The notes beneath the pieces are model-generated. The model ran no database searches, was not told the origin of the DNA, and worked only from the letters and a program-made list of their open reading frames with translations. Shown in pieces: positions 6,676-36,697 of a stretch of 48,382 nt of DNA (position 1 is its first letter; each line of letters opens with the position of its first letter). The position numbers were made by a program, and so were the translations under genes. This DNA comes from an uncultured Gammaproteobacteria bacterium (GTDB lineage: Bacteria > Patescibacteriota > Microgenomatia > CAZETR01 > Amesbacteraceae), in NCBI GenBank assembly GCA_964441445.1, contig CAYTYO010000002.1:1-48382 (forward strand). The letters are read 5' to 3'.

Positions 6676-6696
6676 AACCGACTTAAAGTCTACCTA

Positions 6697-7407: not shown

Positions 7408-7425
7408 AAAACTTTGTTAAGGCGG

Positions 7426-8528: not shown

Positions 8529-8610
8529 TACCTTCTTGAGAACTCCTCAAAACTTCAACTTACCTCTTTCCATCAGCTATAATACGAAGGCGCTAATAAA
8601 GTTAAATATT

Positions 8611-8695
8611 GGGCAAGTGGCGGAATGGCAGACGCGCAGGTCTCAAAAACCTGTGGGCCTTAAAGCCCGTGTGGGTTCGACTCCCACCTTGCCCA
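8611..8695 (+). tRNA. tRNA-Leu (anticodon CAA), class II with long variable arm
   Basis: Acceptor GGGCAAG pairs with CTTGCCC, discriminator A. Anticodon stem CAGGT/ACCTG with loop CTCAAAA. Variable arm TGGGCCTTAAAGCCCGT. T arm GTGGGTTCGACTCCCAC. No encoded CCA. Confidence 0.93.
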
Positions 8696-8754
8696 CAAAT
8701 TTTTTCTTTGCATTTTTTGCAATGTGACACTTCAAATGCTTACAATATATTGAC

Positions 8755-9486
8755 ATGAATGCTTTTCAAATAAATAGCTCTCAGGAAAATAGCAGCGCGC
8801 CAAATATATCCGCTTCAAATGAGCCCTCTCACCGCACTGGACCCTTGCCAATAGTTGTTGGTGTCACACTTTTAGTAATCGCTTTAGCGTCTGGTTTTTA
8901 CTACAAAAGTCAAAAACCTGCCGCTTCAATTCTCACGGATTCTACCTCCACTTCTGCGGCTCCCACCCCCGAAGATGAAATTTATCCCCCGGTTACCGGT
9001 GCCATCGTCTCACCTTCGCCCACCTCATTAAATTATTCGGTCCCCGCCAATTGGAAAAAAACTTTCTTACCCAATCATTCCATTACTGTGTGTCTTCCCC
9101 CTAAATGGGAACTGGATCAATGGGGCGGCATCTTCTTTAATCGCGACGCCCGATATCAACCCAACATCACCTACCTTCAGAACCTTCCTTTCACATCAGG
9201 TACACAGCAAGATGCGTATTTTCAATATTGGCAATCCGAATACCCTCAAATTAGCTCCCTGGTCTCGTTTCAGGAAACAATCCTCGGCAATAACACTGTC
9301 CTGACAGTTCTTCCTGCCGATACATCCGAACCCAAATCGGCTCCTGACGGTGGCTTGGCAGTGATCTGGTTTGCAAACGGTAAACTCTGGAAAGCCGGGC
9401 TTAGCAATTGGAATATGGTCAATCCGTCACAAACAGCTTTCCTTAAAGATTTTTACACCGCCATCAGCTGTAGTTTCACCGATTAA
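8755..9486 (+). CDS. Hypothetical membrane-anchored extracytoplasmic protein
   Basis: 243-aa ORF with a single TM (LPIVVGVTLLVIALASGFYY), then a Ser/Thr/Pro linker and a globular part. No known motif. Confidence 0.6.
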   Translation: MNAFQINSSQENSSAPNISASNEPSHRTGPLPIVVGVTLLVIALASGFYYKSQKPAASILTDSTSTSAAPTPEDEIYPPVTGAIVSPSPTSLNYSVPANWKKTFLPNHSITVCLPPKWELDQWGGIFFNRDARYQPNITYLQNLPFTSGTQQDAYFQYWQSEYPQISSLVSFQETILGNNTVLTVLPADTSEPKSAPDGGLAVIWFANGKLWKAGLSNWNMVNPSQTAFLKDFYTAISCSFTD

Positions 9487-20094: not shown

Positions 20095-21129
20095 TCAAAC
20101 CCCCACCTTGAATTCCACCACATCCCCTTCCTGCATTATATATTCCCGGCCTTCCTGTCTCACCTTCCCCAACTCTCTCGCCCTTGCCCACCCACCCACT
20201 TTCACAAACTCATCAAAAGCTACAGTCTCGGCCTTGATGAAGTTCTTTTCAAAATCAGTGTGGATTACCCCGGCCGCCGTCGAAGCCGTCATTCCTTTCT
20301 TAATGGTCCACGCCCTTACTTCAATTTCCCCGGCCGTCAGAAAGGACTGCAACCCCAAAATCTCATAGCCCTTTCTGATCAGTTTAGCCAACCCGCTCTC
20401 GCTTACCCCTGCCTGGATCAGGTACTCTATCTGGTCCGCTTCGGGTAATTCTGAAAGTTCAGCTTCCATCTTCGCGCATATCCTCACTTCGTCCCCGTCA
20501 CCGGTTAACTTATCTTCGTCGACGTTAAGCACCACGATTACCGGCTTGGAGGTCAGAAGGCTCATCTGCTTTACTGCATTTGTATCCTCATCATTAAAAA
20601 CCATCTCTGACACTTTCTTTCCGGCTTGAAGCCCGGCTTTAACCTTTTCCGCCAGCGCCAATCTGGTCTTATCCTTCCCGGAAAGAATTTTTTCCACAGT
20701 TTCCAAATCTGCTAGGATTAATTCCGTTTCTAATACTTCTCTGTCTGATTTTGGATCAAACGACCCCGCCCTGATCACGTTATCATCACCAAAATCACGT
20801 AGCACCATTGCGATGGCATCGACCTCACGGATGTGGGACAAAAATTTATTTCCCAATCCTTCACCAGAACTCGCCCCTTTCACCAGTCCCGCAATATCTA
20901 CGAACTTTACAGTCGCATGCACTTCAGGGGGTAAGTGCTCCATCTTTTCAGCCATCTTTACTACCTCCGCTAACATTGCCAACCGTTCATCCGGAACTCC
21001 CACCACTCCCACATTCGGCTCAATTGTCGCAAATGGGTAATTCGCGGCCAGTGCCGCCTGCTTCTTAAGCAAGGCGTTAAATAACGTTGATTTACCGACG
21101 TTCGGCAATCCCACTATCCCTATCTCCAT
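20095..21129 (-). CDS. ychF: Redox-regulated ATPase YchF (Obg-family)
   Basis: MEIGIVGLPNVGKSTLFNAL, NYPFATIEPN, FVDIAGLVKGAS, C-terminal TGS-like IHTDFEKNFIKAE. ATG at 21129 is preferred over TTG at 21153. Confidence 0.93.
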   Translation of the reverse strand: MEIGIVGLPNVGKSTLFNALLKKQAALAANYPFATIEPNVGVVGVPDERLAMLAEVVKMAEKMEHLPPEVHATVKFVDIAGLVKGASSGEGLGNKFLSHIREVDAIAMVLRDFGDDNVIRAGSFDPKSDREVLETELILADLETVEKILSGKDKTRLALAEKVKAGLQAGKKVSEMVFNDEDTNAVKQMSLLTSKPVIVVLNVDEDKLTGDGDEVRICAKMEAELSELPEADQIEYLIQAGVSESGLAKLIRKGYEILGLQSFLTAGEIEVRAWTIKKGMTASTAAGVIHTDFEKNFIKAETVAFDEFVKVGGWARARELGKVRQEGREYIMQEGDVVEFKVGV

Positions 21130-21238
21130 AAAAACATCCCAACTTTTGGTCAAAAAGGGTTAAATGCCCCCCTAACGCAACTTGGCCTCCTTCATATACC
21201 GTTATTTTAACAATAAATCCTCATTAATTGTCCTTAGT

Positions 21239-21715
21239 TCACTTAGCACTCCACAAATTTGGCAATTTATTACTGTACAGGGCGGTTCCAAACCACGCCC
21301 AGTTTTGGATATAGTAGTTTTTCGCATCTTCCCAATAACTGGATCCTGTATCAAAATCCTCATAAAACTTAGCTAAAATCTTTTCCTTGTATATCAAATC
21401 TGCAGTCTCGGGAGAAGTTACAGAAAAATTAACCATGCTCATCGCGTACCCCAATACCGATTCATATTTCTCCCACGGCTCACCACTGTGCGTATATCCA
21501 ACTAGAACTTTTCCGTCATTTATCCACCTGTCCAGCAAAAACCTGCCGCTAAGATCCAATAACTCCTTCGCCCTCTGCTCAGAATTCCATTTATAATCCA
21601 AGGCCAAACGCCACATCGTCCTCACGGCATCATACGAGTAATCCGTCGACTCCAAACCCGGCTCTTCGGCACGACTAAATACTCCGTTTTCATCCATCTG
21701 TAACATGAGCATCAC
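21239..21715 (-). pseudogene. Glycoside hydrolase family 8-like C-terminal fragment (5'-truncated remnant)
   Basis: The 158-aa ORF carries only GH8 C-terminal-type blocks (YSYDAVRTMWRLALDYKW; DAKNYYIQNWAWFGTAL, compare BcsZ SYDAIRVY.W and DAYYNY). An in-frame TGA lies directly upstream (21716-21718). No N-terminal catalytic half is present. Confidence 0.45.
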
Positions 21716-21760
21716 TCATTGTGTAACCTGAGTAACACGATTGAAGCTGATAAGTCAGAT

Positions 21761-23971
21761 CTATTTTCGCCAGTGTGCAGAAATATACTCGTTAGCCTCG
21801 CGCACATCCAACTCATGGGAGGCGTTTCCGGACCTGACATGAAACTCTGCCTTATAACCATCCGTGAGGTAAACCGGGATCACAAACTTTGGTACATCTA
21901 TAGTCAATACTGTTTTCCCTTTCACCTGAACAAATTCTGTGTTCAAATGTGGTCTTATCTCCTTACCTAAGTAGTTAACCATCACGTTGGTAAATGCCAG
22001 CTCATACTTATCGGGGTTTCTCTCGACCAAAGTCTCTAAATCCTTTTCGATGCCCACAATCTCTCCCTGGTCACTCACTCCTATTAATAATCTTCCCCCT
22101 TCCGAATTGGCAAAAGCCGCCACAGTCCTGGCTATTACTTTTTCCAGTACCTTATCTACCTGTTCAGTCCTGTAATTCCATCGCATGGATGCTTTAAACT
22201 CCAACCTGCTACTTTCTCCGCCAGCAATTTGCTCCTCTAATAGTTCTTCTGCGGATTTAGTCGCCGAAATAGGTAAATGCTCAATAAATTCATTTATGGT
22301 CCTGGCAATTTCCGACCTCCTGTATTGCAAAAACTGCCGGAAGTTGTCCACTTCCCACAATGCCCGGTCCTCAGGTATCAATTGCGATTTGAGGGTCTCC
22401 TGTCCCCGCTTCGAGATTATTTCCTTTTCAAAATATACACTCGGGGGGGTATCGGAAATCTTTCTATTGGTACTTCCGCCTAAGAAAACTAAGTTTGCAA
22501 TGTCGTTTATCTCCTTCTGGTCATATTTTGCCTTTGACAACAAGGCTTTCGGAAAAATGTGGTGGGCTTGAATTTTATGGCTCATTCCCAAATGAGAACT
22601 GGATAAAGCCAAACCTGTAAACCAATCTTTTGCACCCCTGGATTTAAAAACGGTATACAGCATGGAGAAAAATGGACTATTGGTAGTCTTGTTTACCAGA
22701 TCATCTGGTGTCACCTCAAACTTCTTAACGTGAGCCTCCAATATGTTAAGAAGATCATTAACGTCCGCATTCCTGAATAGTGACGCTAAGTCTGCATTTA
22801 GAATTGATTCAGAAGACCCCATACCATAGTGCCCGCGCATGTGTGCCAGATATAACCATCTTAAAAGCAGCCTCTCTTCGTCCAGGCTCAAATGGTAATT
22901 TTTAAGATGTGCAAATACCGCGATAGGAATAACCAAACTGGAAGCTGCCAAATCTTCCAGCTTCTCAATCGCAGCATTAGTTCGGACAAAATTAACCGCG
23001 AACCTCATCCCTTGTTTAGCTTTCTCCCACGCTTCCTGAAGCTGAACTACTTTATACTTTCCGATGGTATTAAATTTCGCTTGTTTAGTAGCAAAGACTG
23101 TCAGTGTTCTTACCGCCAACCAATCTGCTACATATTCACCGTCTTCTCCAAACTCTGCAGCAAATTCATCCAACTGGTTCATAAAGCCTTTCCACTTGCT
23201 GGATATTTGCGCGATAGCCAAATCAGATCCCCGCAGCTTTATGCCCAGAGAATTAACCCGGACAAAAATCTCGGTTACTTCCTCATATGACATGCTCTTT
23301 TCTAAAATTTGCATCACATACATATATTCGGTAATTTTTCTTACTCTCTGCAATCTGTCGGCATACTTATCCCACCGCGCATCATCAGAATTTATGCCTA
23401 ATGGTTTTAGCAAATCCCTATCCGGCATCTTAAAAATATCTGATACCGATACCCATGAAGGATTATTTTGTAGTGCTCGATAGCCAACCACAAAGGTCCT
23501 CTTCCTCAGTTCCTCCTGAATATCTATCTGGTTTGACTCACCGTTCTCATTTTCGTCCCCATCAGACATGGAATCGTTTTCATCGACTTCCATCACTTCA
23601 ATCGGTGGCCCGTCGGGGTGATCTAGGTTAAACATAATCTCAATCGGCCGCTTTCGCCTCCGTACCGTGATCGGCTGGCCTGTTAAAACTGCTGATAATG
23701 AAGTAATCCTTTGTTGCCCGTCCAGAAGCAACAACCTGCTTGATGAACTTGGAGTAGAGGTCGGTCTTGAAGCCAATTCTTTTGTCTCTACATCTTCGTC
23801 GGTCTCCCAAACCAATATGGTTCCGGAAGGGTAACCACGATACAATGAGTCCAACAAGTCTCTAACCCTGGTAGCCGGCCACACATATCGTCTTTGCATT
23901 TCCGGTAGTAACAATTCCCCCCTCTGAGTTTTGTCTACCAACTCCCTGACGGAAATATCAGTTTTAGCCAT
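21761..23971 (-). CDS. DUF262 (GmrSD-type ParB-like NTPase) / His-Me finger nuclease / AlbA_2 (Schlafen-type) fusion protein; candidate stand-alone defence nuclease
   Basis: 736 aa. Motifs: LPEMQRRYVW, DGQQR (nt 23708-23722), IFVRVNSLGIKLRGSDL. QAHHIFPKALL...NDIANLVFLGGSTNRKISD lies at nt ~22457-22579. C-terminal GGESSRLEFK...VAAFANSEGGRLLIGVSDQGEIVGIE lies at nt 21764-22222. Confidence 0.88.
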   Translation of the reverse strand: MAKTDISVRELVDKTQRGELLLPEMQRRYVWPATRVRDLLDSLYRGYPSGTILVWETDEDVETKELASRPTSTPSSSSRLLLLDGQQRITSLSAVLTGQPITVRRRKRPIEIMFNLDHPDGPPIEVMEVDENDSMSDGDENENGESNQIDIQEELRKRTFVVGYRALQNNPSWVSVSDIFKMPDRDLLKPLGINSDDARWDKYADRLQRVRKITEYMYVMQILEKSMSYEEVTEIFVRVNSLGIKLRGSDLAIAQISSKWKGFMNQLDEFAAEFGEDGEYVADWLAVRTLTVFATKQAKFNTIGKYKVVQLQEAWEKAKQGMRFAVNFVRTNAAIEKLEDLAASSLVIPIAVFAHLKNYHLSLDEERLLLRWLYLAHMRGHYGMGSSESILNADLASLFRNADVNDLLNILEAHVKKFEVTPDDLVNKTTNSPFFSMLYTVFKSRGAKDWFTGLALSSSHLGMSHKIQAHHIFPKALLSKAKYDQKEINDIANLVFLGGSTNRKISDTPPSVYFEKEIISKRGQETLKSQLIPEDRALWEVDNFRQFLQYRRSEIARTINEFIEHLPISATKSAEELLEEQIAGGESSRLEFKASMRWNYRTEQVDKVLEKVIARTVAAFANSEGGRLLIGVSDQGEIVGIEKDLETLVERNPDKYELAFTNVMVNYLGKEIRPHLNTEFVQVKGKTVLTIDVPKFVIPVYLTDGYKAEFHVRSGNASHELDVREANEYISAHWRK

Positions 23972-24050
23972 TTATAATCGGAATTATATACCCTCTTGAG
24001 GCCAAAAACCGCCAAATCCCAGAGCGCCCTCAACTCCCAAGCCCGCTTGA

Positions 24051-24173
24051 AAGGTTAGCACTATCTATGGAACCTATTTTTCAGACAATCCGCCTGCCAG
24101 AGAAATGGTGTGTGTCAAAGAGCTGCCTCATGGAGCAAAAATCGAAATTAGCGTGATTGCCAAAAAACCCTAA
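24051..24173 (+). pseudogene. RidA/YjgF-family C-terminal remnant (40 codons)
   Basis: The frame opens just after an in-frame TGA at 24048-24050. It reads KVSTIYGTYFSDNPPAREMVCVKELPHGAKIEISVIAKKP*, matching the RidA C-terminal pattern (VY..YF...PAR..V.V..LP....EIE.IA). The first ~85 codons are absent. Confidence 0.55.
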
Positions 24174-24204: not shown

Positions 24205-24720
24205 TCACGAAACCTGACTACTAATCAACTCATTTTTCAGTTTGGTTACATACTCAGTTCTTTCTTCAGGTTTAGACAAAATACTTTTCTTTGCCGAGTT
24301 TTTGTTATATGAATCACCTTCATATCTGGGAAATATATGGTGATGATAATGAAAAGCGTGTTGATTCCCGGCTGGCTCATTATTTTGCCTTGTCGTTATT
24401 CCATCACATCCATAAGCGTTCTTCATAACAATAGACATCTTTTTAACCACTTCAGAAATTCTGTGTCCTACTTCATCAGGTAGCTCATAAATATTCTCAT
24501 AATGTTCATTTGGAACAACTATCACATGCCCTTTTACTGTATCAATCCAAAATGAATTCAAAAACACGCTCACCAAATCATCTTTATAAATTAAATCTGC
24601 CTGTTTTAATAAAGTATCTTCGTTCTCTATTCCACGAACACCTAGGCAAATAGGACATTTATAATTTTCTGGTGCGTGTTTAATAAGAGTTGACTTTCTC
24701 TTTAAATTTATCAAATCCAT
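24205..24720 (-). CDS. HIT-family (histidine triad) nucleotide hydrolase/transferase
   Basis: CPICLGV N-terminal motif, GHVIVVPNEHYENIYEL, histidine triad NQHAFHYHHHIFPRY. Visibly AT-rich. Confidence 0.85.
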   Translation of the reverse strand: MDLINLKRKSTLIKHAPENYKCPICLGVRGIENEDTLLKQADLIYKDDLVSVFLNSFWIDTVKGHVIVVPNEHYENIYELPDEVGHRISEVVKKMSIVMKNAYGCDGITTRQNNEPAGNQHAFHYHHHIFPRYEGDSYNKNSAKKSILSKPEERTEYVTKLKNELISSQVS

Positions 24721-25316
24721 TATAAAACGCCAATATTATTTAAATCGTTTTCCAACTTCTCAGGTGACTCAAACACTAATCCTGTTATGCCTATTAGGCT
24801 GGCTGGTTCCAACATCTTTGGTTTATCATCAATAAATATAGTTTCCTCGGGTTTTGCGTCACCTTTTTCTAAAGCAAACTCATAAATTTTTGGGTTGGGT
24901 TTCCGCACTCCCACCTCATGGGAAAATATACCGCCATCAAACCAAGAAATAAACCCAAATCTTGCGTCTAACTTGTTTACTCTCTCCTTCACATTATCTG
25001 ATAAATACATTACCTTATATTTACCCCGTAACTTATCAATTATCTCTTTGGTACCTGAAATCAATTCATAATTCCCTATCCATTCTTTTTCCAAATCATC
25101 AACCGACTCCTTCAAAGGCAACTTCTCCAAAACCAACCTCCAAAATTCATCTCTGTCAATTTGTCCTTCCCTGTACTTAGTCCCAATATCTCCATCCAAA
25201 ACATTTAATGCTGTTTCTGAAGCTATCCCATATCTAACTGTAATATCATGAATAAATCTCTTAGTCCCATTTGTAAACACTACCCCTCCCAAATCAAACA
25301 AAATCAGTTTATACAT
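24720..25316 (-). CDS. HAD-superfamily hydrolase (subfamily IA-like)
   Basis: Motif I LILFDLGGVVF, SHEVGVRKPNPKIYE (motif III Lys), FIDDKPKML (motif IV). 1-nt overlap with the HIT gene. Confidence 0.85.
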   Translation of the reverse strand: MYKLILFDLGGVVFTNGTKRFIHDITVRYGIASETALNVLDGDIGTKYREGQIDRDEFWRLVLEKLPLKESVDDLEKEWIGNYELISGTKEIIDKLRGKYKVMYLSDNVKERVNKLDARFGFISWFDGGIFSHEVGVRKPNPKIYEFALEKGDAKPEETIFIDDKPKMLEPASLIGITGLVFESPEKLENDLNNIGVL

Positions 25317-25902
25317 ATCGATTTACTGACGATCTTACATCATCAGGGCTTGTAAATAACCTTGCATCTATCCCTAATTCATGTGCCACAGCTACGTTTT
25401 TTTCATCGTCATCCCAATACATCACTTCCTCTGGTTCAACTCCCAACCTTCTCAAAATCTCTTCAAAAAACTCCGTGTGTGACTTTTTTACCCCTAAGTC
25501 GCAGGAAAAAAACTGACCATCAAAATGTTCACCCAATTTCATTTCTTCCAAAAGATATCTCACCCGATATTTCTCCTGATCAGTAGCTAAATAGCACTTA
25601 ACTCCCTTCTGCCTTAAACCATCAACTACCTCCAAAACCTCTGTATCTACTTCCTTTTCGCTACTAAACCAATATTCCATTAATTCCTCTACCGTTCCAG
25701 TCCACCCCCAACCTGCTAAATACTTACCAATTTCCTGTTTTAAATCAGCTTTACCAACCGTACATAAACCAAATTCACCCTTAAAAAACGGCATTACTTG
25801 TTCCAACGGTATCCCCTGCCTTTTTGCTAACTTCTCACTAAAAAACCCTTCTCTCTTTACTACAACTACATCATCCGCATCCCAAAGTATATCCTTTATC
25901 AT
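25309..25902 (-). CDS. HAD-superfamily hydrolase, divergent paralogue
   Basis: Motif I ILWDADDVVV, SCDLGVKKSHTEFFE, MYWDDDEKNV. 8-nt overlap with the downstream HAD gene. Confidence 0.8.
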   Translation of the reverse strand: MIKDILWDADDVVVVKREGFFSEKLAKRQGIPLEQVMPFFKGEFGLCTVGKADLKQEIGKYLAGWGWTGTVEELMEYWFSSEKEVDTEVLEVVDGLRQKGVKCYLATDQEKYRVRYLLEEMKLGEHFDGQFFSCDLGVKKSHTEFFEEILRRLGVEPEEVMYWDDDEKNVAVAHELGIDARLFTSPDDVRSSVNRYV

Positions 25903-26027: not shown

Positions 26028-27650
26028 TTATAGCTGCCTGTTATTTATGTCCTTATAGGACCATCTTTTTTTAAACCTGACAGCAAACTTAGTTAGCCTG
26101 CTAACAATCATCAATAGTACTATCCCCACTCCTACTAACACTAACCCTACCTGAAAATTGCCCAGATTATAAAAAGTACTCTGCAGCAATTGGCCGTCTT
26201 CCAACTTAGATTTAAAAATGTCACCTGGAGCTTCAATCCAGATCTTTCTCTCCCCCGTTAATGCCGGCTTAAACATATTCAGTTGTCCCATCCAGCCCAT
26301 AAATATTGAAAACATCACAGCTGCACCGAATAACAATTTAGCCGTCCACCATTTTGTAGTCCGCATTTTGTTAACCACTAATCCCACCGGTAGAATTAAC
26401 CCTGAGGCAAATGGATAAAAGTACCTGACATCATATTGATTACCACCCCAAAAATTTAACACCTTTGCATTAAGCCCTACCCCGAAAATAAAAATTATTA
26501 GCGAAAAAAGCACCACATCCCTTTCCATCCGATCAAACGACTTATACCAAAATCCGCTCAGTAAAACGAAGAGCAAAAACGGCGATATGGCAAATATCCC
26601 GTAAAAATTGTACCTTTGGGCAAAATCAGCCGACGCAAAAACCCTAAGTTCTTTGGGGTAATTGTCAAAATTACTGAAACTATCCGTCCCCAACTTACCC
26701 CAGTTGAACAACACCGACCGGACAGCCGGCCACCATGGCGTTGACAGCCACACTTCGTTAATCCTATTCGGTCCGACAATACCAAGAACAGTGGGCTGCT
26801 TAGTTGTCCCCCACGAACTAACCTGCCCATACCAGTGGAAATTCAATAACACCTGACACCCTACCGTACACATAGCCAGGGCTACTATCTTGAACATCAG
26901 CCTTCGCGGCGTGTTTAGCCACAACCAAACACCCAAGAACAAAGACAGTCCCACAAACAAACTCACATCAATTCCCAGAGCAGTTCCCCACAGACCACCC
27001 AAACACCACCACATACTCTTTCCATTATTTTTTCCCTTACTAAACTTCACCACTAGATAACCGACCATCCCTATGTAAAATACTTCCAATCCGTGCCGAC
27101 TAATCAAATTTGCGTATTTCCATGCATATGTTCCTAACCCCACGGCTAAGCCCAAGAACCATCTCATCCATCTTCCCGTCCCCATCATTGCCAATACTGC
27201 CACCAGATACCCTATTCCCAAAGCCGTAAACGCCCCAAACAATCCTGTTACCACGAGCTCGGTTTTAAAGTCGGCTGCAACTGTAGCCTGAACTGGAAAC
27301 CCATCAGTATTAACTAAGCCGGACACTAATTGTCCCACCTGATAAAAGGGTATTGTCATAACACTTGTCATATATCCCCTCACCCCAAAAGTTTCCCCGT
27401 TCCGTCCGTAAAAAATATCCGGAAACACAAAATAATGCGCACTATTTGCATACCCGGATATATCGACAGAATTTTTTTCTAGCAATGATTTGACCGTGAA
27501 GTACTGTGGCGCATCAGCCGAGTTGTACAACCCCGAGGCACTTATAAAGTACACTACGAATAACACCGCCACCAAACTAAAAACCGACCCTAACTTTTTT
27601 TCTAACAAAAATTTCGTTCCCACTAACCTGCAATTGTACATCGACACCAC
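26028..27650 (-). CDS. Large polytopic membrane protein, possibly GT-C-type glycosyltransferase
   Basis: 540 aa with more than 10 TM helices and a loop-rich N-terminal part. No firm motif, and the start is uncertain. Confidence 0.75.
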   Translation of the reverse strand: MVSMYNCRLVGTKFLLEKKLGSVFSLVAVLFVVYFISASGLYNSADAPQYFTVKSLLEKNSVDISGYANSAHYFVFPDIFYGRNGETFGVRGYMTSVMTIPFYQVGQLVSGLVNTDGFPVQATVAADFKTELVVTGLFGAFTALGIGYLVAVLAMMGTGRWMRWFLGLAVGLGTYAWKYANLISRHGLEVFYIGMVGYLVVKFSKGKNNGKSMWWCLGGLWGTALGIDVSLFVGLSLFLGVWLWLNTPRRLMFKIVALAMCTVGCQVLLNFHWYGQVSSWGTTKQPTVLGIVGPNRINEVWLSTPWWPAVRSVLFNWGKLGTDSFSNFDNYPKELRVFASADFAQRYNFYGIFAISPFLLFVLLSGFWYKSFDRMERDVVLFSLIIFIFGVGLNAKVLNFWGGNQYDVRYFYPFASGLILPVGLVVNKMRTTKWWTAKLLFGAAVMFSIFMGWMGQLNMFKPALTGERKIWIEAPGDIFKSKLEDGQLLQSTFYNLGNFQVGLVLVGVGIVLLMIVSRLTKFAVRFKKRWSYKDINNRQL

Positions 27651-27686: not shown

Positions 27687-28151
27687 TTACTTGTAATAAC
27701 TCTTAATCTGGTACAGGAAATACAACCCCAAACCGGTACCGATTATTAATCCCAAAATATTGTATTGGACCAGAGAATAAACCCCACCCACTAATGTGGC
27801 ATAAAACAATAGCTTCCAACCCCGCATCTCTCGCTTCATCAACCCTGATATTGCCGCAAACTGCAATCCCATTTGCACTAGTGCGACCAGCATTCCCAGC
27901 ATGTAGTTAGCGCCAAACCTACCCCCAATGCCCCAAGCTATCGGAGAAAGTATTGCCCCCAACCCAAACACCGCCAAAACTACCGGTAACAACAAAAGAC
28001 CCAATACCAAACTTATCCACGGTCCAAACTTAACCAAAAACTCTTTAATCTCCCCGGGAAGTGGAGGTGCCTTCTTCACTAAGTACTCAGTTAACAATGT
28101 ATCCAATTGCTCAAGTCCCATCCCGGTCGTTTCTTTCTGTTTGTGCTCCAC
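27687..28151 (-). CDS. Small integral membrane protein (4 TM), unknown function
   Basis: 154-aa ORF with a hydrophilic N-terminus followed by four hydrophobic helices. Confidence 0.7.
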   Translation of the reverse strand: MEHKQKETTGMGLEQLDTLLTEYLVKKAPPLPGEIKEFLVKFGPWISLVLGLLLLPVVLAVFGLGAILSPIAWGIGGRFGANYMLGMLVALVQMGLQFAAISGLMKREMRGWKLLFYATLVGGVYSLVQYNILGLIIGTGLGLYFLYQIKSYYK

Positions 28152-28274: not shown

Positions 28275-28937
28275 GTGGCCCTTCTAATTATCATTCTGCT
28301 CTTGCTTGAATCGGTTCTTCACTGCTTCTCCGTCCAAAAACTCGCCGTCCTTACTGGCATAGTTATCACTTTTCCGGTCATCTCCAGTCAAATACCCGAG
28401 CAAAAAATAGTTTACCTCCTTCTTATCAGCCTGTTTTGGTCTATCTATCGAATATTCAAAGGCCACATTGTCGGCAAAATCTCCTGGCTAATCTGTCTTT
28501 TAATTCTCATCTTTTCTGTCCTGGCAGCAAACAGTGTTATCAGCGCCGATTTTCACTTTGACGCCGAAAGAACGTTCATTGTAGACAATGACTATCCCGA
28601 AACCATCACCCGGTTTCAAACCACATCCGTCTATTTGCCATATCGTTTCCGCTCCATATTTTTTGCTTCCTGGATTATCCCCATTTCCCTCCTCGGCCGT
28701 GGTTTTTCTCTTTTTTGGTTCGATCAGATTGTCCCCGCCATAGGCCTCGTTGCATTATTACCTTTAATAATCAGTTTATCTCTCCGGCCCAAATTTTTGA
28801 CTCTCGTGCCAATATTTTTTGCTGCTGTAACTGCCGGTCTGAGCCGAAATCCCGACACTTCAGGTTTATATCTTTTGTGTCTGCCTTTCTTAATTACCCT
28901 TATTTCCGACAGTCTAAATATTACGATCAAAAGATGA
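28275..28937 (+). CDS. Integral membrane protein coupled to the downstream glycosyltransferase
   Basis: Hydrophobic 220-aa ORF with a GTG start. It ends in an ATGA overlap with the next gene. The true start is uncertain because an antisense 60-aa ORF covers its 5' part. Confidence 0.55.
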   Translation: MALLIIILLLLESVLHCFSVQKLAVLTGIVITFPVISSQIPEQKIVYLLLISLFWSIYRIFKGHIVGKISWLICLLILIFSVLAANSVISADFHFDAERTFIVDNDYPETITRFQTTSVYLPYRFRSIFFASWIIPISLLGRGFSLFWFDQIVPAIGLVALLPLIISLSLRPKFLTLVPIFFAAVTAGLSRNPDTSGLYLLCLPFLITLISDSLNITIKR

Positions 28938-30445
28938 AAATCAGACTTATATTGCTAGGCGTTATCGTTTTTATTGCCGGATTTTTGCGTTTGTATCAAA
29001 TAAATTCCGTTCCCCCGCATCTGTCAAATGATGAAATTTCTCTGGCTTTCGACAGCTACAGTCTGCTCACCACCGCCAAAGATCAACACGGCCGCCCATT
29101 TCCTGTGTCTTTGAAATCTCATGGTGATTACAAAGCCCCCCTTTACAGTTATTTAGCCACACCTTTTGTTTTTCTTCTCGGCAACACTACCTTAGCTGTC
29201 AAACTACCCTCCGTAATTGCCGGAGTACTTACTGTACTGGTTATTTTCTACCTCTCGCTCCACCTCACCCGAAATCCCCAGGTTTCCCTCTTTTCCGCTT
29301 TGGTTGCTGCCACTTCATTTTGGTCAATCACCACCTCCCATGGCGTAGCTGAGACCAATCTTGCTTTATTGTTCCTGTGTTTAGGCGTACTTTTCTTAAT
29401 CCGGAAAAAATCTCTTCCGTTATCAGCCCTATTTTTGGCCATGTCTATGTACGGCTACCACACCGAAAAGGGTCTTGTTCCTCTGATCATTCTCGTTTGG
29501 TTATTCGTCTTCCGGCCCAAACTGAAAGCCATATTAACGCTCCTGCTGCCGTTAGGCTTATTGCTTCTTCCGCAAATCTTCGACCTTGGAACCACAGCCA
29601 GAGCCGGAGCCGAAGTTATCTGGAATGAGACCGGCAATAATTTCCCCAAAACCATATCCGTTTTTGTTTCAAACTACTTTGCCTACATCAATCCGGGCTA
29701 TTTATTCTTCTCCGGCTTGGGTATCTTTCATGGCCAGCACCCTTACAACCCCGGCCTATTCACCTGGCCTTTAGTTATTCCTTTTTTTCTAGGTCTTTTT
29801 CAGCTCAAACCCACACGTTTTCCGCCCATCAAATTCCTGTTGCTGTGGTTAATTGTTTCACCCGTTATCCCCGCTCTGACACATGGTGGTCCGAGTTTAC
29901 TACGAAATTTAACCAGCCTTGCACCTTTGTCACTAATAATTGGCCAGGGCATGCATTTCCTGTTTAAACGTCTCCCGCGTTTGTTTTGGATCTTAGCTGT
30001 AGTCTTCGTCATCTTTACCGTTTATTACCTTCCGGTTTACTATTATCATTTCCCCCGCGAACGTGCCGGCACTTACCAGGGATATCGCCCCATTGCCGAA
30101 TACCTCCGCAATCACGTTAATGACTTTACCCATGTCCAAATTGACGATCGTTTCGGTCCCCTGAATGAGTTCATAGGTGTGCCGCATCTCTTTATTGGCT
30201 TTTACTCTCCCCTTTCCCCTTCAGTCATCCAAAGTCCCGTTCATACTCCGGAAGGAAGTTTCTATGCTGACATTTTTTCTGTCTCCTGGATTAACTGGAC
30301 TTCACAAACTCCCGTTCCTTCCACCTGGTATATTGTCGGTGTCGGCAACACCCCGCCGGACAGTGTTAAAAAGAACTATCGTCTGGTTACCGACTTTCCC
30401 GACATTTCCGGAAAAACTGCCTTTGAAATTTGGACTGCGATATAA
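28934..30445 (+). CDS. GT-C glycosyltransferase, family 39 / ArnT-PMT_2-like
   Basis: MKIRLILLGVIVFIAGFLRLYQINSVPPHLSNDEISLAFDSYSL shows TM1, then the first-loop DE motif, then many TM helices and a C-terminal soluble domain. The start is set at the internal ATG (28934). Confidence 0.85.
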   Translation: MKIRLILLGVIVFIAGFLRLYQINSVPPHLSNDEISLAFDSYSLLTTAKDQHGRPFPVSLKSHGDYKAPLYSYLATPFVFLLGNTTLAVKLPSVIAGVLTVLVIFYLSLHLTRNPQVSLFSALVAATSFWSITTSHGVAETNLALLFLCLGVLFLIRKKSLPLSALFLAMSMYGYHTEKGLVPLIILVWLFVFRPKLKAILTLLLPLGLLLLPQIFDLGTTARAGAEVIWNETGNNFPKTISVFVSNYFAYINPGYLFFSGLGIFHGQHPYNPGLFTWPLVIPFFLGLFQLKPTRFPPIKFLLLWLIVSPVIPALTHGGPSLLRNLTSLAPLSLIIGQGMHFLFKRLPRLFWILAVVFVIFTVYYLPVYYYHFPRERAGTYQGYRPIAEYLRNHVNDFTHVQIDDRFGPLNEFIGVPHLFIGFYSPLSPSVIQSPVHTPEGSFYADIFSVSWINWTSQTPVPSTWYIVGVGNTPPDSVKKNYRLVTDFPDISGKTAFEIWTAI

Positions 30446-30456
30446 TAACCGTCACT

Positions 30457-30732
30457 ATGGACGAAAAAATTCTTGTCATTAAACGCGATGGATCGAAAGA
30501 ACCCTTTGATCCGGAAAAGATTTCCCGCGTCACTTTGGCGGCCGGCTTAAACCAGGATCAGGTTCAACTCTTGTCACGTAAACTCACCCTCTGGGCATCA
30601 TCTCTCGGTACGAACGAGATCTCGTCATTGGATATCCGCGACCAGGTATTAAATGAATTGGAAAGCATTGATGAAAATGTCGCCCGGTTCTTCCGTTGGT
30701 ACCAAAAAACCAAAGACACTCCTCATTCATAA
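30457..30732 (+). CDS. Stand-alone ATP-cone domain protein
   Basis: MDEKILVIKRDGSKEPFDPEKISRVTLAAG... fits the ATP-cone start (KRDG..E.FD..KI). There is no zinc ribbon and no RNR catalytic domain. It starts 11 nt after the GT39 stop. Confidence 0.75.
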   Translation: MDEKILVIKRDGSKEPFDPEKISRVTLAAGLNQDQVQLLSRKLTLWASSLGTNEISSLDIRDQVLNELESIDENVARFFRWYQKTKDTPHS

Positions 30733-31677
30733 ATTCTGCAGCTTTTCTGTTAGTTCCGCATATGAATTTACTCCCATCAACGTTTGCCTTTCCGCCGCTG
30801 CACCTTCGTACCCAGCTACATACATTTTGATGTTTTTTTTCATCTCGCCAAACGGCTTCTTACCCTGCCATTCCGCTTCATACAGGCGAGCGTGATCACT
30901 AAGGGCCATAAGTCTTTCCGTCTTTGTTAATATTCTTCGCTCAGCTGCAAACGCCGCCGGATTTTCAAATACTCCTCTTCCAATCATCACCCCGTCCATT
31001 TGAAACTGCAAAAATAGTTCTTTTGCCTGTTGTCTGTCTTTAACATCCCCATTCCCACAAATTAGCGTCTCTGTCTTTTTCCTCCTTTTTATGTCCACGA
31101 TCTTTTCCATTTCCTCCCAGCTTGCGGGCACTGCGGATTGTTCAGCCGCAGTTCGTAAGTGAAAGGTTATCTCCGCCAAACCCTGATCCAAAAGAAAATC
31201 CGCCCAATCTTCAGTTACGACCTTTTTATAACCAATCCTGGTTTTTACCGACACCGGCAACTTCCCGCCTTCTCTTGTCGCTGCAATTATTTCCTTCACC
31301 CTTTGCCACTGCTCTTTCTCAATCATTCTGCTGCAGGCGCCAATTTTAACCACATCCCTAACCGGACAACCCAAATTAATATCAATGCCGTCAACTCCAA
31401 GCTCGGAAATTTTGTGAGCTGCCGCAAAAAAAATCTCCGGATCCACTCCCCATATTTGCGCTACAATTGGCCTTTCCTCCTGAAGGTATTTTAGCCTGAC
31501 AGAGACCTTATCAAATCCTTCTGAACATATTCCGTTTACATTTGTAAACTCGGTGTAAAACACATCCGGTCGCCCGAACTTGGCGATTGACCGGCGAAAC
31601 ACCGTATCAGTAACACCTTCCATCGGTGCCAGTGACACAAACGGTCTGGGTAGTTTTTTCCAAAATCCCATTTCCAT
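30727..31677 (-). CDS. dus: tRNA-dihydrouridine synthase
   Basis: LAPMEGVTDTVFRR, DGIDINLGCPV, SVKTRIGY, TFHLRTA. Confidence 0.92.
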   Translation of the reverse strand: MEMGFWKKLPRPFVSLAPMEGVTDTVFRRSIAKFGRPDVFYTEFTNVNGICSEGFDKVSVRLKYLQEERPIVAQIWGVDPEIFFAAAHKISELGVDGIDINLGCPVRDVVKIGACSRMIEKEQWQRVKEIIAATREGGKLPVSVKTRIGYKKVVTEDWADFLLDQGLAEITFHLRTAAEQSAVPASWEEMEKIVDIKRRKKTETLICGNGDVKDRQQAKELFLQFQMDGVMIGRGVFENPAAFAAERRILTKTERLMALSDHARLYEAEWQGKKPFGEMKKNIKMYVAGYEGAAAERQTLMGVNSYAELTEKLQNL

Positions 31678-31746: not shown

Positions 31747-33345
31747 GTGTTGAAAAGATTTTTGTTTCACCCGCTGACGTGGATCTTTATTTTAGCCTTG
31801 TTTCTCCGTTTTTGGCATCTGACCTCTCTTCCCTCCGGCTTCCATGTCGATGAAGTGAAAGTCGGCTGGAATGCCTACTCCCTGTTTAAAACCGGCCGTG
31901 ACGATTGGTGGCATGCATTTCCTCTCCACTACGATACTTTCGGTGATCAACGGCCAACGGGCCTTTTCTACGCCTCTGTTCCGGCCATAGCCGCCTTTGG
32001 TCTGAACGAATTTGCGGTTCGTTTTACCCCGGCCATCTTTGGGGCTTTAGCAGTTCTGTCCGTATTTTTTCTCACCAAGCAGATTACCGGTAATAATTCC
32101 GCGGCCTCGCTTTCCGCCCTCATGTTGGCCATCTCTCCCTGGCATATTACCCTCAGTCGGGCCACCTCCGAAGGTATCGTTGCCACAACCCTCATATTGC
32201 TGGCCATGCTTTTTCAAATCCGCGCCTTATCCAAAAAACAGTTTGCTCCCACTCTCATTTCCCTCTTATTTTATCTTTCCTCATATTTCTTCTACCACAC
32301 CTCTCGCCTGCTAATTCCGCTTTTTGTCTTTGCCATCATCATCTACTTTAGAAAAATCCGCATTTCTTCACTCTTACTTCTCGGCTGCACTTCACTTTTA
32401 ACTGTTGTACTGGCGCTCTCACCTGCTGCCCGTGGTCGATTATCTCAGGTGTCTATATTCTCAGACCAGAGCATAAAAATCGAGTTGGATCGTCTTCCGT
32501 TTGAAGAAGGCGATAACCACATTTTTGTAGCCCGGGCCCTGCACAATAAAATTGTGTTATACGCCTCGCGCTTCTTCAATGAATATTCACAATATATAAG
32601 CGGAAAATTCCTCCTCTCCTTCCAGGAAGCCAAACCCTCCCGGTATCAAACTGCCACCAAGGGTTTACTCCTTTATTCCGAATTTGTTCTCCTAGGCATA
32701 GGATTAATCTCCGTTGCCCGGAAAAAGTTTCCTTCCCTCCCCGTTCTGCTGCTGCTTTTAAGCCCCCTTCCGGCTGCCCTTACCACCGAAGACGCTCCCA
32801 ATCTCCATCGCTCCCTGGTCATGTCCCCCTTCATCTCCATGATCGCCGGATTTGGCCTACTTCATATCTTACGCATTCGTCGCCGACTTTTTGCCATTAC
32901 TGTTCTTATTTTAGCTGTCGAATTATTTCACTACTCCCACCTGTATATTGTCCACAACCCGGTCCGGGACGCCCTCACCTTACCCCGGAATGTCGGAGCC
33001 ACCGAACTTATTACTGCCATCGGTCGGCTTTCCCCTCAGTATACGAATATCTATCTCACTAACCGACCCGACCACCTTTATCCCTGGTTTGCGTTTCTTA
33101 CCGGTAAGGATCCGCGTCAGTTCAATCCTCTGCTTTCATTCGGAAAATCCCGCGACTGGACGTATACCAATCTCGTCTTTTCCCAATTCCGCTGTCCTTC
33201 CAGTTTCGTCCAGGATCATAACCTCCAGCACACTCTGGCGGTTGACGCCGAAGGCTGCCCCACGCCCACAAGATTGGTTAATGTCGAAAACATCAGCCGG
33301 ATCAGCGGCGGCACAACTTATACTCTCTGGAGTTCGAAAGACTAG
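31747..33345 (+). CDS. GT-C glycosyltransferase, family 39 / ArnT-PMT_2-like (paralogue of 28934-30445)
   Basis: FLRFWHLTSLPSGFHVDEVKVGWNAYSLFKTGRDDWWHAFPL has the same TM1/DE-loop layout as the paralogue. About 12 TM helices and a soluble C-terminal domain. GTG start. Confidence 0.85.
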   Translation: MLKRFLFHPLTWIFILALFLRFWHLTSLPSGFHVDEVKVGWNAYSLFKTGRDDWWHAFPLHYDTFGDQRPTGLFYASVPAIAAFGLNEFAVRFTPAIFGALAVLSVFFLTKQITGNNSAASLSALMLAISPWHITLSRATSEGIVATTLILLAMLFQIRALSKKQFAPTLISLLFYLSSYFFYHTSRLLIPLFVFAIIIYFRKIRISSLLLLGCTSLLTVVLALSPAARGRLSQVSIFSDQSIKIELDRLPFEEGDNHIFVARALHNKIVLYASRFFNEYSQYISGKFLLSFQEAKPSRYQTATKGLLLYSEFVLLGIGLISVARKKFPSLPVLLLLLSPLPAALTTEDAPNLHRSLVMSPFISMIAGFGLLHILRIRRRLFAITVLILAVELFHYSHLYIVHNPVRDALTLPRNVGATELITAIGRLSPQYTNIYLTNRPDHLYPWFAFLTGKDPRQFNPLLSFGKSRDWTYTNLVFSQFRCPSSFVQDHNLQHTLAVDAEGCPTPTRLVNVENISRISGGTTYTLWSSKD

Positions 33346-35539: not shown

Positions 35540-36697
35540 TCACTTTGTATCTTCAGTCAACTTGCTGAAATACTTTTTTCCGCGCAACTTTTCCGGTAAC
35601 AGACTATCTCTGGTGTATTTGTCATATCCTTTTCCGTATCCCAATTCCTTCATCAGTTTCGTCGGAGCATTCCGCACCCGCATCGGTATCGGTAAATTCC
35701 CGTGTTGGTTCACGTCAGCTAGTGCTTCCATATATGCGTCATATGCCCGGCGATCTTTTTTACATGCTGCCAAATAAGCCACCCCCGCAGCTAAATTTTC
35801 CTGACACTCCGGATATCCGATTGTCTCACATGCCCGGAACACCGCATTGGCGACTACCAGTGCCGTCGGCACTGCCATTCCGACATCTTCAGACGCAAAC
35901 ACGACCATCCGTCTGGCGATAAACAAAGGATCTTCACCGGCAGCTACCATCCGGGCCAGATAATACAATGCTGCATCAATATCACTTGCCCGCATAGCTT
36001 TTATAAACGCTGATATCGTGTTGTAATGCTCGTCACCCAGCTTGTCATACCGCAGATGCTTAGACTGTAGTGTATTCTTCAAAGTCTCGACATTTACTTT
36101 CCCGTACAGCTCTTGGGTATTTTCAATCATGGTAATCACCTGCCGGGCATCACCGTTTGCCATCGCCACCAACCACTCCCTCGCCTCTTTATTCATCGTG
36201 ACCCCAGTTCTCTTTACAATCGCAAGCATTTCCACTTCATTCAATTCATTTAGCACAAACACCCGGCATCTGGATAGCAAAGGCGAAATTACCTCAAAGC
36301 TGGGATTTTCTGTGGTCGCCCCGATTAACGTAATCGTCCCGTTTTCCACATGCGGCAATAGATAATCCTGCTGGGCCTTGTTAAACCGGTGTATCTCGTC
36401 CAGGAACAACACTGTGGGTATCAATGCTCCTCTGGCGGCTTCCACCACCTTTCTGACATCATCCTTGCCGGCATCCACCGCCGACAGATTTACAAACTGG
36501 GCCCCCAACCCTTCAGCATAAATCCGCGCCAATGTGGTTTTACCTACACCCGGTGGCCCCCACAGGATGAAAGAAAATTTATGTTTATTCTCAATTGCAA
36601 TCCTCAGTGGTTTATCTACACCCACTAAATGTGTCTGCCCGACGTAATCACTTAATTGTTTCGGTCGAAGTCTTTCCGCCAAGGGTGCGAGTTCCAT
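35540..36697 (-). CDS. rarA: Replication-associated recombination protein A (AAA+ ATPase)
   Basis: LAERLRPKQLSDYVGQ, Walker A LWGPPGVGKTTLARI, Walker B LFLDEIHRFNKAQQD, C-terminal MgsA helical domain. Confidence 0.93.
   Translation of the reverse strand: MELAPLAERLRPKQLSDYVGQTHLVGVDKPLRIAIENKHKFSFILWGPPGVGKTTLARIYAEGLGAQFVNLSAVDAGKDDVRKVVEAARGALIPTVLFLDEIHRFNKAQQDYLLPHVENGTITLIGATTENPSFEVISPLLSRCRVFVLNELNEVEMLAIVKRTGVTMNKEAREWLVAMANGDARQVITMIENTQELYGKVNVETLKNTLQSKHLRYDKLGDEHYNTISAFIKAMRASDIDAALYYLARMVAAGEDPLFIARRMVVFASEDVGMAVPTALVVANAVFRACETIGYPECQENLAAGVAYLAACKKDRRAYDAYMEALADVNQHGNLPIPMRVRNAPTKLMKELGYGKGYDKYTRDSLLPEKLRGKKYFSKLTEDTK

What the first reader, a model, noticed from the sequence alone, without database searches (positions are those of the whole stretch)
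21239..24173. The fusion gene sits exactly between two 5'-truncated gene remnants whose missing ends point into it (replacement scar)
To the left is a minus-strand ORF holding only GH8 C-terminal-type blocks, cut off by an in-frame TGA at 21716-21718. To the right is a plus-strand 40-codon RidA/YjgF C-terminal remnant (24051-24173) that opens just after an in-frame TGA.

The missing N-terminal halves of both would lie where the 2.2-kb DUF262 gene now is. This implies that a divergent GH8/RidA pair and their shared promoter region were overwritten by the incoming cassette. I found no direct repeats, integrase or transposase at the junctions.

This is direct sequence evidence that the gene is a recent acquisition. 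It also defines the cassette limits at about 21716-24050.
Basis: partly seen in the sequence, partly recalled or inferred. Interest (0 to 1): 0.65.

Follow-up and report, generated by a model that had tools for sequence, protein, structure and literature searches.

The report
Defence gene replacing deleted resident genes
A phage-defence-type gene with its own promoter sits where resident DNA was lost in a small uncultured bacterium, leaving the tail ends of two broken genes beside it; this is a clean but ordinary example of gene replacement.

Summary
The ORF at 21239-21715 (-) is the tail of a GH8 glycoside hydrolase, and 24051-24173 (+) is the last 40 codons of a RidA gene. Their broken 5' ends face the 2.2-kb DUF262 gene.

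- The GH8 piece is the last 153 of about 880 codons of a membrane glycosyltransferase (GT-C)-GH8 fusion that is intact in more than 30 Patescibacteria.
- In the three closest relatives with an intact gene, the upstream neighbours are a co-directional GT2 and a Crp-like regulator, not RidA. RidA lies near none of about 45 relatives of this gene.
- The lost DNA was therefore larger than supposed, and a "divergent GH8/RidA pair with a shared promoter" is not supported.
- GH8 homology starts at 21700, not at the TGA.
- DNA shared with other copies of the inserted gene spans about 21759-24012, including a conserved TATAAT box 11 nt before the ATG. About 58 nt and 38 nt of junction filler remain unexplained.
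- There is no integrase, transposase, tRNA or flanking repeats. A 23-nt imperfect tandem duplication straddles the left breakpoint.

The GH8 tail shows no decay (dN/dS 0.05), so the truncation is recent or the tail is still constrained. The inserted gene's base composition matches the host.

The parts
21239..21700 (-). Remnant of a GT-C-GH8 fusion gene: the last 153 codons plus the stop, equivalent to residues ~697-849 of the 849-aa L001 protein. The mechanical ORF runs on to 21715.
   Evidence: PDB CelA GH8 hit at E 8e-7. Homologues carry PF01270. tblastn/blastn homology to intact genes starts at 21700. 82% aa and 80% nt identity to L142.
21693..21738 (-). 23-nt imperfect tandem duplication (17/23) straddling the GH8 breakpoint: GTGTTACTCAGGTTACACAATGA / GTGATGCTCATGTTACAGATGGA.
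   Evidence: None of 1000 local shuffles reaches it. Only 2 such repeats occur in the window, against 0.7 expected.
21701..21758 (-). Left junction filler of unknown origin. It is not GH8 and is not shared with other copies of the DUF262 gene.
   Evidence: Local alignment to L142 GH8 upstream sequence is not better than shuffles, p 0.2. Homology to L140/L085 stops at the stop codon.
21761..23971 (-). Inserted gene of 736 aa: GmrSD_N (DUF262), a weak GmrSD_C/HNH region, and a C-terminal SLFN_AlbA_2 domain. It belongs to the BrxU/HEC-05-like type IV restriction family.
   Evidence: Pfam PF03235 E 8e-29, PF04326 E 4e-20, PF07510 E 1.5e-4. PADLOC HEC-05 E 3e-56 over residues 2-564. PDB BrxU 7p9k E 2e-13.
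23972..24012 (-). Upstream region that travels with the gene. It contains GGGTATATAAT (TATAAT at 23983-23988), 11 nt before the ATG. This is a putative -10 box giving a near-leaderless transcript.
   Evidence: DNA homology to L140, L141 and L085 extends 23-41 nt upstream of the ATG. The box and its 11-nt spacing are conserved while the spacer sequence is not.
24013..24050 (.). Right junction filler of unknown origin. It ends with the TGA at 24048-24050.
   Evidence: No homology to other DUF262 loci or to RidA.
24051..24173 (+). RidA/YjgF remnant: the last 40 codons plus the stop, equivalent to residues 87-126 of the L163 RidA. There is no start codon and no N-terminal part.
   Evidence: PF01042 30.1 bits, above gathering. 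TIGR00004 E 3e-9. 67% identity to L163 RidA, E 2e-10.
20095..21129 (-). YchF, the left anchor. It is the first gene of the conserved YchF-S6-SSB-S18-CtpA block.
   Evidence: Pfam. Synteny in more than 20 Patescibacteria loci and in L142.
24205..24720 (-). HIT-family gene convergent with the RidA remnant. It is the first gene of a low-GC HIT-HAD-HAD block that runs to 25902.
   Evidence: Pfam. Composition. The HAD-HIT pair recurs in relatives.

Best explanation
The locus is a deletion-plus-insertion scar in a variable stretch of a Patescibacteria (Microgenomates-type) chromosome. The stretch lies between two conserved anchors: the YchF-S6-SSB-S18 block and the homologue of the gene at 27687-28151.

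A self-contained unit now occupies the place of resident DNA. It consists of a GmrSD/BrxU-type (DUF262, HNH-like) gene fused to an AlbA_2 domain, plus about 40 nt of its own upstream sequence with a TATAAT box. The lost DNA included:
- the first ~727 codons of a GT-C-GH8 envelope-polysaccharide gene;
- probably, by synteny with relatives, its GT2 and Crp-like partners;
- on the other side, the first ~86 codons of a RidA gene.

No recombinase, tRNA target, terminal inverted repeats or target-site duplication are present, and both junctions carry short filler. The most likely route is therefore recombinase-independent: illegitimate or homology-facilitated recombination of imported DNA. The deletion end points were limited by neighbours that had to be kept (the YchF promoter region on the left, HIT on the right).

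Shown: the identity of the remnants, the breakpoints, the synteny, and the promoter box that travels with the gene. Inferred: that it was one event, the recombination mechanism, and the defence function of the inserted gene.
For: - Remnant identities and breakpoints.
- The intact ~870-900-codon GT-C-GH8 gene is present in more than 30 genomes.
- Crp, GT2 and GT-C-GH8 occur in that order in L001, L142 and L143. None of these genes is elsewhere in the window.
- L142 shares both anchors, but the DNA between them is entirely different.
- The closest DUF262 homologues lie in unrelated contexts.
- Homology among copies is limited to the ORF plus 23-41 nt upstream, with a conserved GTATATAAT box at a fixed 11 nt from the ATG.
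- No mobile-element genes, tRNA or flanking repeats. The 3' flank has no attC-like hairpin.
- The GH8 tail is undecayed: dN/dS 0.05, and branch dN about equal to that of the intact orthologue.
- GC3 skew of the inserted gene is weaker than its neighbours, z +1.8.
Against: - No relative close enough to show the pre-insertion allele was found. The best is 82% aa in GH8 and 62% in YchF.
- The whole 6 kb between the anchors differs from L142, so several events may be stacked.
- RidA is not a neighbour of GT-C-GH8 anywhere else, so its origin (resident or imported with the cassette) is open.
- The inserted gene's GC and GC3 match the host, which does not mark it as recently foreign.
- The 23-nt duplication is 26% diverged. 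That fits poorly with a very recent junction if it arose afterwards.
- Read support for the two junctions could not be checked.
Confidence: 0.62

Rival explanations
1. Multi-step history. The interval upstream of YchF is a hot spot of gene turnover. The GH8 and RidA truncations came from earlier deletions or earlier inserted cargo. The DUF262 gene arrived later, possibly bringing the RidA tail with it from the donor.
For: - All 6 kb between the anchors differs from L142.
- The region upstream of YchF differs in every relative examined.
- L142 has its own 2.2-kb block placed exactly at the YchF start.
- The HIT-HAD-HAD block beside the RidA tail is compositionally odd.
- Both junctions carry filler of unknown origin.
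- RidA is never a neighbour of GT-C-GH8.
Against: - Both remnants are free of stops and frameshifts, and the GH8 tail shows no excess non-synonymous change. Old, separate truncations would be expected to show decay.
- The broken end of each remnant directly faces the cassette, with only 58 and 38 nt between.
Confidence: 0.22
2. The GH8 tail is not a scar but a functional stand-alone small protein kept by selection. Relatives would carry such short ORFs as genes.
For: - dN/dS is 0.05 with all family-invariant residues kept.
- An independent free-standing 135-144-aa GH8 tail exists in an Amesbacteria genome and in two other samples.
- P0004 (100 aa) sits after a flavodoxin gene.
- The source annotation calls the window ORF a gene (P0001).
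Against: - More than 30 relatives have the full ~880-codon gene.
- Several 'short' database entries are contig-end or frameshift artefacts.
- The tail covers roughly a third of the (alpha/alpha)6 barrel. By alignment to CelA and the catalytic residues as I recall them for CelA, it lacks the N-terminal part that carries the catalytic acid.
- Its first codons are junction filler, and it has no TATAAT box or Shine-Dalgarno upstream.
Confidence: 0.07
3. Assembly chimera. The 2.3-kb DUF262 segment was joined into this contig by the assembler from another population.
For: The contig is a metagenome assembly. The family is very widespread, with more than 7,600 homologues.
Against: - Two independent misjoins would be needed, with no shared repeat at either junction.
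- GC, GC3 and the sign of the strand skew of the segment fit the contig.
- No second copy is in the window.
Confidence: 0.05

Closest known systems
GmrSD-family type IV restriction enzymes, BrxU / PADLOC candidate HEC-05 (Picton et al. 2021, PMC8565348; bioRxiv 10.1101/2024.01.29.577857)
   Same: - N-terminal DUF262 with the DGQQR motif, and a DUF1524/HNH-like region (HHIFP...N).
- The PADLOC HEC-05 profile is matched almost end to end (22-594 of 600, E 3e-56).
- BrxU structure 7p9k is matched at E 2e-13.
- It is a single-gene unit.
   Different: - It carries an extra C-terminal Schlafen/AlbA_2 domain (residues 586-721) that BrxU and most of the 568-aa homologues lack.
- It is not embedded in BREX or Hma.
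- Its activity is untested.
Defence-gene turnover at variable hot spots between core genes (defence islands). General knowledge, not tested here.
   Same: A defence-type gene lies in a stretch whose content differs between relatives that share both flanking core genes.
   Different: There is only one clear defence gene, no integrase or mobile-element backbone, and pseudogene tails are visible at both junctions.
Homology-facilitated illegitimate recombination after natural transformation, as described for Acinetobacter and Streptococcus pneumoniae. From my own knowledge.
   Same: Foreign DNA replaces resident DNA without site-specific recombinase signatures. The junctions are irregular, with filler or a short duplication.
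   Different: No homologous anchor segment could be identified. DNA uptake by this organism is assumed, not shown.
GT-C (PMT_2-like) glycosyltransferase-GH8 fusion genes of Patescibacteria, with adjacent GT2 and Crp-like genes
   Same: The left remnant is 66-82% identical to the C-terminal 153 residues of these proteins.
   Different: Only 17% of the gene survives. The GT-C domain, most of the GH8 barrel and the partner genes are absent from the window.

Membership tests
Glycoside hydrolase family 8 (PF01270) | Significant sequence match to GH8 catalytic-domain proteins | tested here: met
   The Pfam model itself does not hit the fragment. CelA 1cem is matched at E 8e-7. PF01270-bearing homologues are 45-82% identical.
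Glycoside hydrolase family 8 (PF01270) | Complete (alpha/alpha)6 barrel with the N-terminal catalytic acid | tested here: not met
   Only the equivalent of about CelA chain residues 230-363 is present. About 727 upstream codons of the fusion are missing. It is a remnant, not an enzyme.
RidA/YjgF/YER057c (PF01042, TIGR00004) | Match to the family profile above threshold | tested here: met
   PF01042 scores 30.1 bits against gathering 27.3. The conserved PAR and EI motifs are present.
RidA/YjgF/YER057c (PF01042, TIGR00004) | Full-length domain of about 125 aa with a start codon | tested here: not met
   Only model positions 82-120 of 121 are matched. TIGR00004 scores 37 bits against cutoff 106. 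No ORF and no upstream homology.
GmrSD / BrxU type IV restriction enzymes | DUF262 N-terminal domain plus a DUF1524-type HNH nuclease domain in one chain | tested here: met
   PF03235 E 8e-29. PF07510 is weak (22.1 bits against 23, E 1.5e-4). HEC-05 profile matched end to end.
GmrSD / BrxU type IV restriction enzymes | Modification-dependent DNA cleavage and phage defence | not testable with these tools
   Needs expression and phage challenge.
Integrase-mediated genomic island or prophage | Integrase gene, tRNA or att target, flanking direct repeats | tested here: not met
   No integrase in the flanking genes. The only tRNA is at 8611. No repeats flank the insert.
IS element or transposon | Transposase, terminal inverted repeats, target-site duplication | tested here: not met
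   There is a single ORF with no transposase domain. No inverted repeats lie at 21701/24050. The best pairs are 70-80% chance-level matches.
Integron gene cassette | Promoterless ORF followed by an attC hairpin, with an integron integrase nearby | tested here: not met
   The gene carries its own TATAAT box. The 3' flank folds no better than shuffles, z -0.8. No integrase is present.

The most novel reading that the evidence does not exclude
BrxU-like DUF262 genes of this clade are minimal autonomous mobile units: a gene plus about 40 nt of leaderless-type promoter. They would spread between Patescibacteria and DPANN archaea without any recombinase, perhaps aided by their own HNH nuclease in a homing-like way, and settle by overwriting dispensable envelope-polysaccharide loci next to essential operons.
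Probability: 0.07. Interest if true: 0.6.

Novelty: new member of a known kind. Interest (0 to 1): 0.3.

Why it matters
It gives a well-delimited example of how a single defence gene enters a reduced, recombinase-poor Patescibacteria genome. Both breakpoints are resolved to within a few bases. The gene's own promoter travels with it. The cost is a resident cell-envelope polysaccharide cluster, and no mobile-element machinery is visible.

It also corrects the picture of what was lost: a GT-C-GH8 fusion and probably its GT2 and Crp partners, not a small GH8/RidA pair. The case is useful for studies of defence-gene flux in CPR bacteria, but the type of event is familiar.

Tried and rejected
- Pfam and NCBIfam on the GH8 fragment gave no hit. 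Identity had to come from PDB and homologues.
- A homologue search with the 40-aa RidA tail found no candidates.
- An exact look-up of YchF found nothing, probably because the called start differs.
- Eighty species-representative genomes found through YchF were 43-59% identical. None had GH8, RidA or any of the window's upstream genes next to YchF, so no empty site was found.
- HIT relatives showed a conserved HAD-HIT pair. RidA was near HIT in only one of them, on the same strand.
- I considered whether the left filler is diverged GH8 and rejected it (p 0.2).
- I considered TGA recoding as the cause of both 'in-frame TGA' cut-offs and rejected it. Long ORFs throughout the window read normally in table 11, and homology ends at the junctions, not at the stops.
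- 'Recurrent short GH8 ORFs in relatives' turned out to be mostly contig ends or frameshifts.
- The first genome scan with the DUF262 protein found nothing. The alignment-based scan showed the family is pan-prokaryotic, but the promoter box is confined to the closest clade.
- Rfam and folding of the conserved YchF leader, and of the cassette's 3' flank, gave nothing.
- The sigma-70 consensus scan found no promoter in the region.
Full report
**What is there**

The window is a Patescibacteria (Microgenomates-type) contig. YchF relatives are 43-59% identical and come mainly from Gottesman-, Ames- and Woesebacteria and other Patescibacteria.

Around the finding, almost all genes lie on the minus strand. 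Read along that strand, the order is:
- gene at 27687-28151;
- a 540-aa membrane protein;
- HAD, HAD, HIT (24205-24720);
- the RidA tail on the opposite strand (24051-24173);
- the DUF262 gene (23971-21761);
- the GH8-tail ORF (21715-21239);
- YchF, S6, SSB, S18, CtpA.

**Checking the two fragments**

RidA tail:
- It scores above Pfam's gathering threshold for PF01042 (30.1 against 27.3 bits, E 5e-7) and covers model positions 82-120 of 121.
- It covers TIGR00004 positions 88-124 of 125.
- It is 67% identical to residues 87-125 of a full-length 126-aa RidA in a Patescibacteria contig, L163 (E 2e-10).
- Upstream of 24051 no frame resembles RidA. The gene is cut after the equivalent of residue 86.

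GH8 tail:
- It is missed by Pfam and NCBIfam.
- It matches the GH8 endoglucanase CelA at E 8e-7.
- Its homologues at 45-76% identity carry PF01270.

**The truncated gene is not a small GH8**

In L001 the homologous ORF is an 849-aa protein. Its N-terminal 550 residues form a multi-pass membrane domain of the PMT_2/GT-C type, and its C-terminus is the GH8 domain.

A scan of species-representative genomes found 49 loci. More than 30 of them carry an uninterrupted reading frame of 868-903 codons with the same architecture. The window keeps only the last 153 codons.

tblastn, blastn and a three-way DNA alignment all place the start of homology at window 21700, at CAG ATG GAT. The TGA at 21716-18 and the first codons of the ORF therefore lie in junction sequence, not in GH8.

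No other part of the fusion is anywhere in the window.

**Relatives and the ancestral arrangement**

The single metagenome scan found L142, a 20-kb contig. Its identities to the window are:

| Gene | aa identity |
|---|---|
| GH8 tail | 82% (80% nt) |
| SSB | 92% |
| S18 | 84% |
| YchF | 62% |

L142 shares the order GH8, YchF, S6, SSB, S18, CtpA and onward. At its other end it carries the C-terminus of the homologue of the window gene at 27687-28151. Both anchors of the region are therefore conserved.

Between the anchors, L142 has 8.4 kb with no similarity to the window's 6.0 kb:
- a cupin-like gene;
- a HAD gene;
- a 319-aa protein;
- two small membrane proteins;
- a Crp-family regulator;
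- a GT2 glycosyltransferase (weak cellulose-synthase similarity);
- the GT-C-GH8 gene, which starts 17 nt before the GT2 stop.

L143 and L001 show the same Crp, GT2, GT-C-GH8 order. L095 also has GT-C-GH8 upstream of YchF-SSB-S18.

RidA is found within 10 kb of this gene in none of about 45 relatives. Among all 257 fetched loci (2.9 Mb) it occurs only in L163, where it follows HIT and a glyoxalase on the same strand.

Conclusions from this:
- The GH8 tail is a resident remnant.
- The lost DNA comprised at least 2.2 kb of the fusion and very likely GT2 and Crp as well.
- The proposed 'divergent GH8/RidA pair with a shared promoter' has no support.
- The origin of the RidA tail is open. It could be resident beside HIT, or it could have been imported.

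**The inserted unit**

The 736-aa protein has these matches:
- GmrSD_N (E 8e-29), a weak GmrSD_C/HNH region, and a C-terminal SLFN_AlbA_2 domain (E 4e-20).
- The PADLOC HEC-05 profile nearly end to end (E 3e-56). HEC-05 is the BrxU type of GmrSD-like type IV restriction enzyme (bioRxiv 10.1101/2024.01.29.577857).
- The BrxU structure 7p9k.

The closest homologues are 78, 74, 72 and 56% identical and lie in four unrelated gene contexts, with no GH8 or RidA nearby.

DNA homology between the window and these copies covers the ORF and stops at the stop codon on the 3' side. On the 5' side it extends 23-41 nt beyond the ATG. That stretch holds a conserved GTATATAAT box whose TATAAT (23983-23988) ends exactly 11 nt before the ATG in four copies, although the spacer sequence differs. 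More distant family members do not share it.

Many genes of this window have a TATAAT-like box 6-11 nt before the start and lack a Shine-Dalgarno. The box is therefore plausibly a -10 element giving a near-leaderless mRNA. This is an inference.

By homology the mobile unit is about 21759-24012. The outer limits set by the remnants are 21701-24050. That leaves 58 nt and 38 nt of filler that match nothing examined.

**The junctions**

- No integrase, transposase or other mobile-element gene lies within 10 kb or more.
- The only tRNA is at 8611.
- No direct or inverted repeats flank the insert.
- The 3' flank forms no significant hairpin.
- The one non-random feature is a 23-nt imperfect tandem duplication (17/23) at 21693-21738, which includes the first 8 nt of GH8 homology. 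None of 1000 local shuffles reaches it. Only one other repeat of that strength exists in the window, against 0.7 expected. It may be a by-product of the joining event, but its 26% divergence is unexplained.

**Timing**

- A codon comparison of the 153-codon tail with L142 gives dN 0.090 and dS about 1.7, so dN/dS is 0.05.
- With three different outgroups, the window branch has dN 0.046-0.052 against 0.038-0.044 for the intact L142 gene.
- All family-invariant residues are kept, and there are no stops or frameshifts.
- If the tail is a pseudogene, it has been one for only a few percent of the branch at most. Otherwise it is still under constraint.
- The inserted gene has GC 0.437 and GC3 0.464, equal to the host means (0.456 and 0.475). 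Its closest homologues have GC3 0.34-0.37. Only its GC3 skew is somewhat weaker than its neighbours, z +1.8.
- 'Recent' is therefore supported by the remnants but not by composition. A donor of similar composition, such as a close relative, would reconcile the two.

**The refutation test 'relatives carry the same short ORFs as intact genes'**

Most short database entries are artefacts:
- P0002 is cut by a contig end.
- P0003 is a mis-called start across a scaffold gap.
- P0005 and P0011 are frameshift splits.

One real free-standing tail of 135-144 aa exists in an Amesbacteria genome and in two other samples. P0004 may be another. This keeps a small probability for a functional-fragment reading. 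The norm, however, is the intact ~880-codon gene.

**Verdict**

It is a genuine gene-replacement scar with a promoter-bearing BrxU-like gene. What was replaced is different from and larger than proposed, the one-step history is not demonstrated, and the region is a generally plastic interval upstream of YchF. L142 itself has a 2.2-kb block placed exactly after the first three YchF codons. The kind of event is well known, and the interest is moderate to low.

Noticed in passing
window 24205-25902: The HIT-HAD-HAD block has GC 0.33-0.39 and GC3 0.27-0.35, against window means of 0.456 and 0.475 (z about -2 to -4), yet it keeps the strong strand skew. A HAD-HIT pair recurs in other Patescibacteria (L144-146, L160, L165, L175). 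The HIT protein also hits the PADLOC ThsC HIT profile (E 5e-13).
   Followed up: partly
whole window: GC skew on the + strand is about -0.31 (GC3 skew -0.46) in every gene, whatever its orientation. This is an unusually strong, uniform mutational strand bias with no switch in 48 kb.
   Followed up: partly
window, gene starts (e.g. 30727-31677, 31747-33345, 46215-46616, 35540-36697): Shine-Dalgarno motifs are nearly absent. Many genes have a TATAAT-like box 6-11 nt upstream of the start codon, which suggests widespread leaderless or near-leaderless mRNAs.
   Followed up: partly
window 21120-21198; L142 10048-10127 and 10128-12327: An ~80-nt element upstream of and overlapping the YchF start is 83% conserved in L142. 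There, a 2.2-kb block (radical SAM 476 aa plus a 174-aa protein) sits right after ATGGAAATAG, the first three YchF codons, and YchF has a new start with GGAGG. The element has no Rfam hit and no significant fold. The window's YchF probably starts at ATG 21129, not TTG 21153.
   Followed up: partly
L142 7037-7151: The otherwise intact GT-C-GH8 gene of the closest relative has a frameshift (two overlapping ORFs, 6402-7151 and 7037-9052). This is either a sequencing error or incipient decay.
   Followed up: no
L002 9974-10408 (= L100, L003, L004): An Amesbacteria genome (GCA_027331445.1) and two other samples carry an independent free-standing GH8 tail of 135-144 aa. It lies downstream of an unrelated 532-aa gene and upstream of an RNase J-like gene.
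   Followed up: partly
window 26028-27650, 28715-30445, 31747-33345: Three further large multi-pass membrane proteins lie close by. Two have PMT/PMT_2 (GT-C) domains and one has no Pfam hit. None is similar to the lost GT-C-GH8 gene.
   Followed up: partly
L178-L257: The DUF262 family is 58-64% identical between Patescibacteria and DPANN archaea (Pacearchaeota, Nanoarchaeota, Micrarchaeota), which implies inter-domain transfer. The AlbA_2-fused ~735-aa form also occurs in Acidobacteriota, Verrucomicrobia and Bathyarchaeota at 42-50% identity.
   Followed up: no
window 42233-42290: An imperfect tandem repeat with a 27-nt period (19/27) lies inside the ORF at 42143-42601. It is the only other tandem repeat of that strength in the window.
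   Followed up: no
window 22941-22985 (-): A sub-threshold Rfam match to Ms_IGR-8 (25.4 bits against gathering 44, E 0.016) lies inside the DUF262 coding sequence. It is most likely chance.
   Followed up: no
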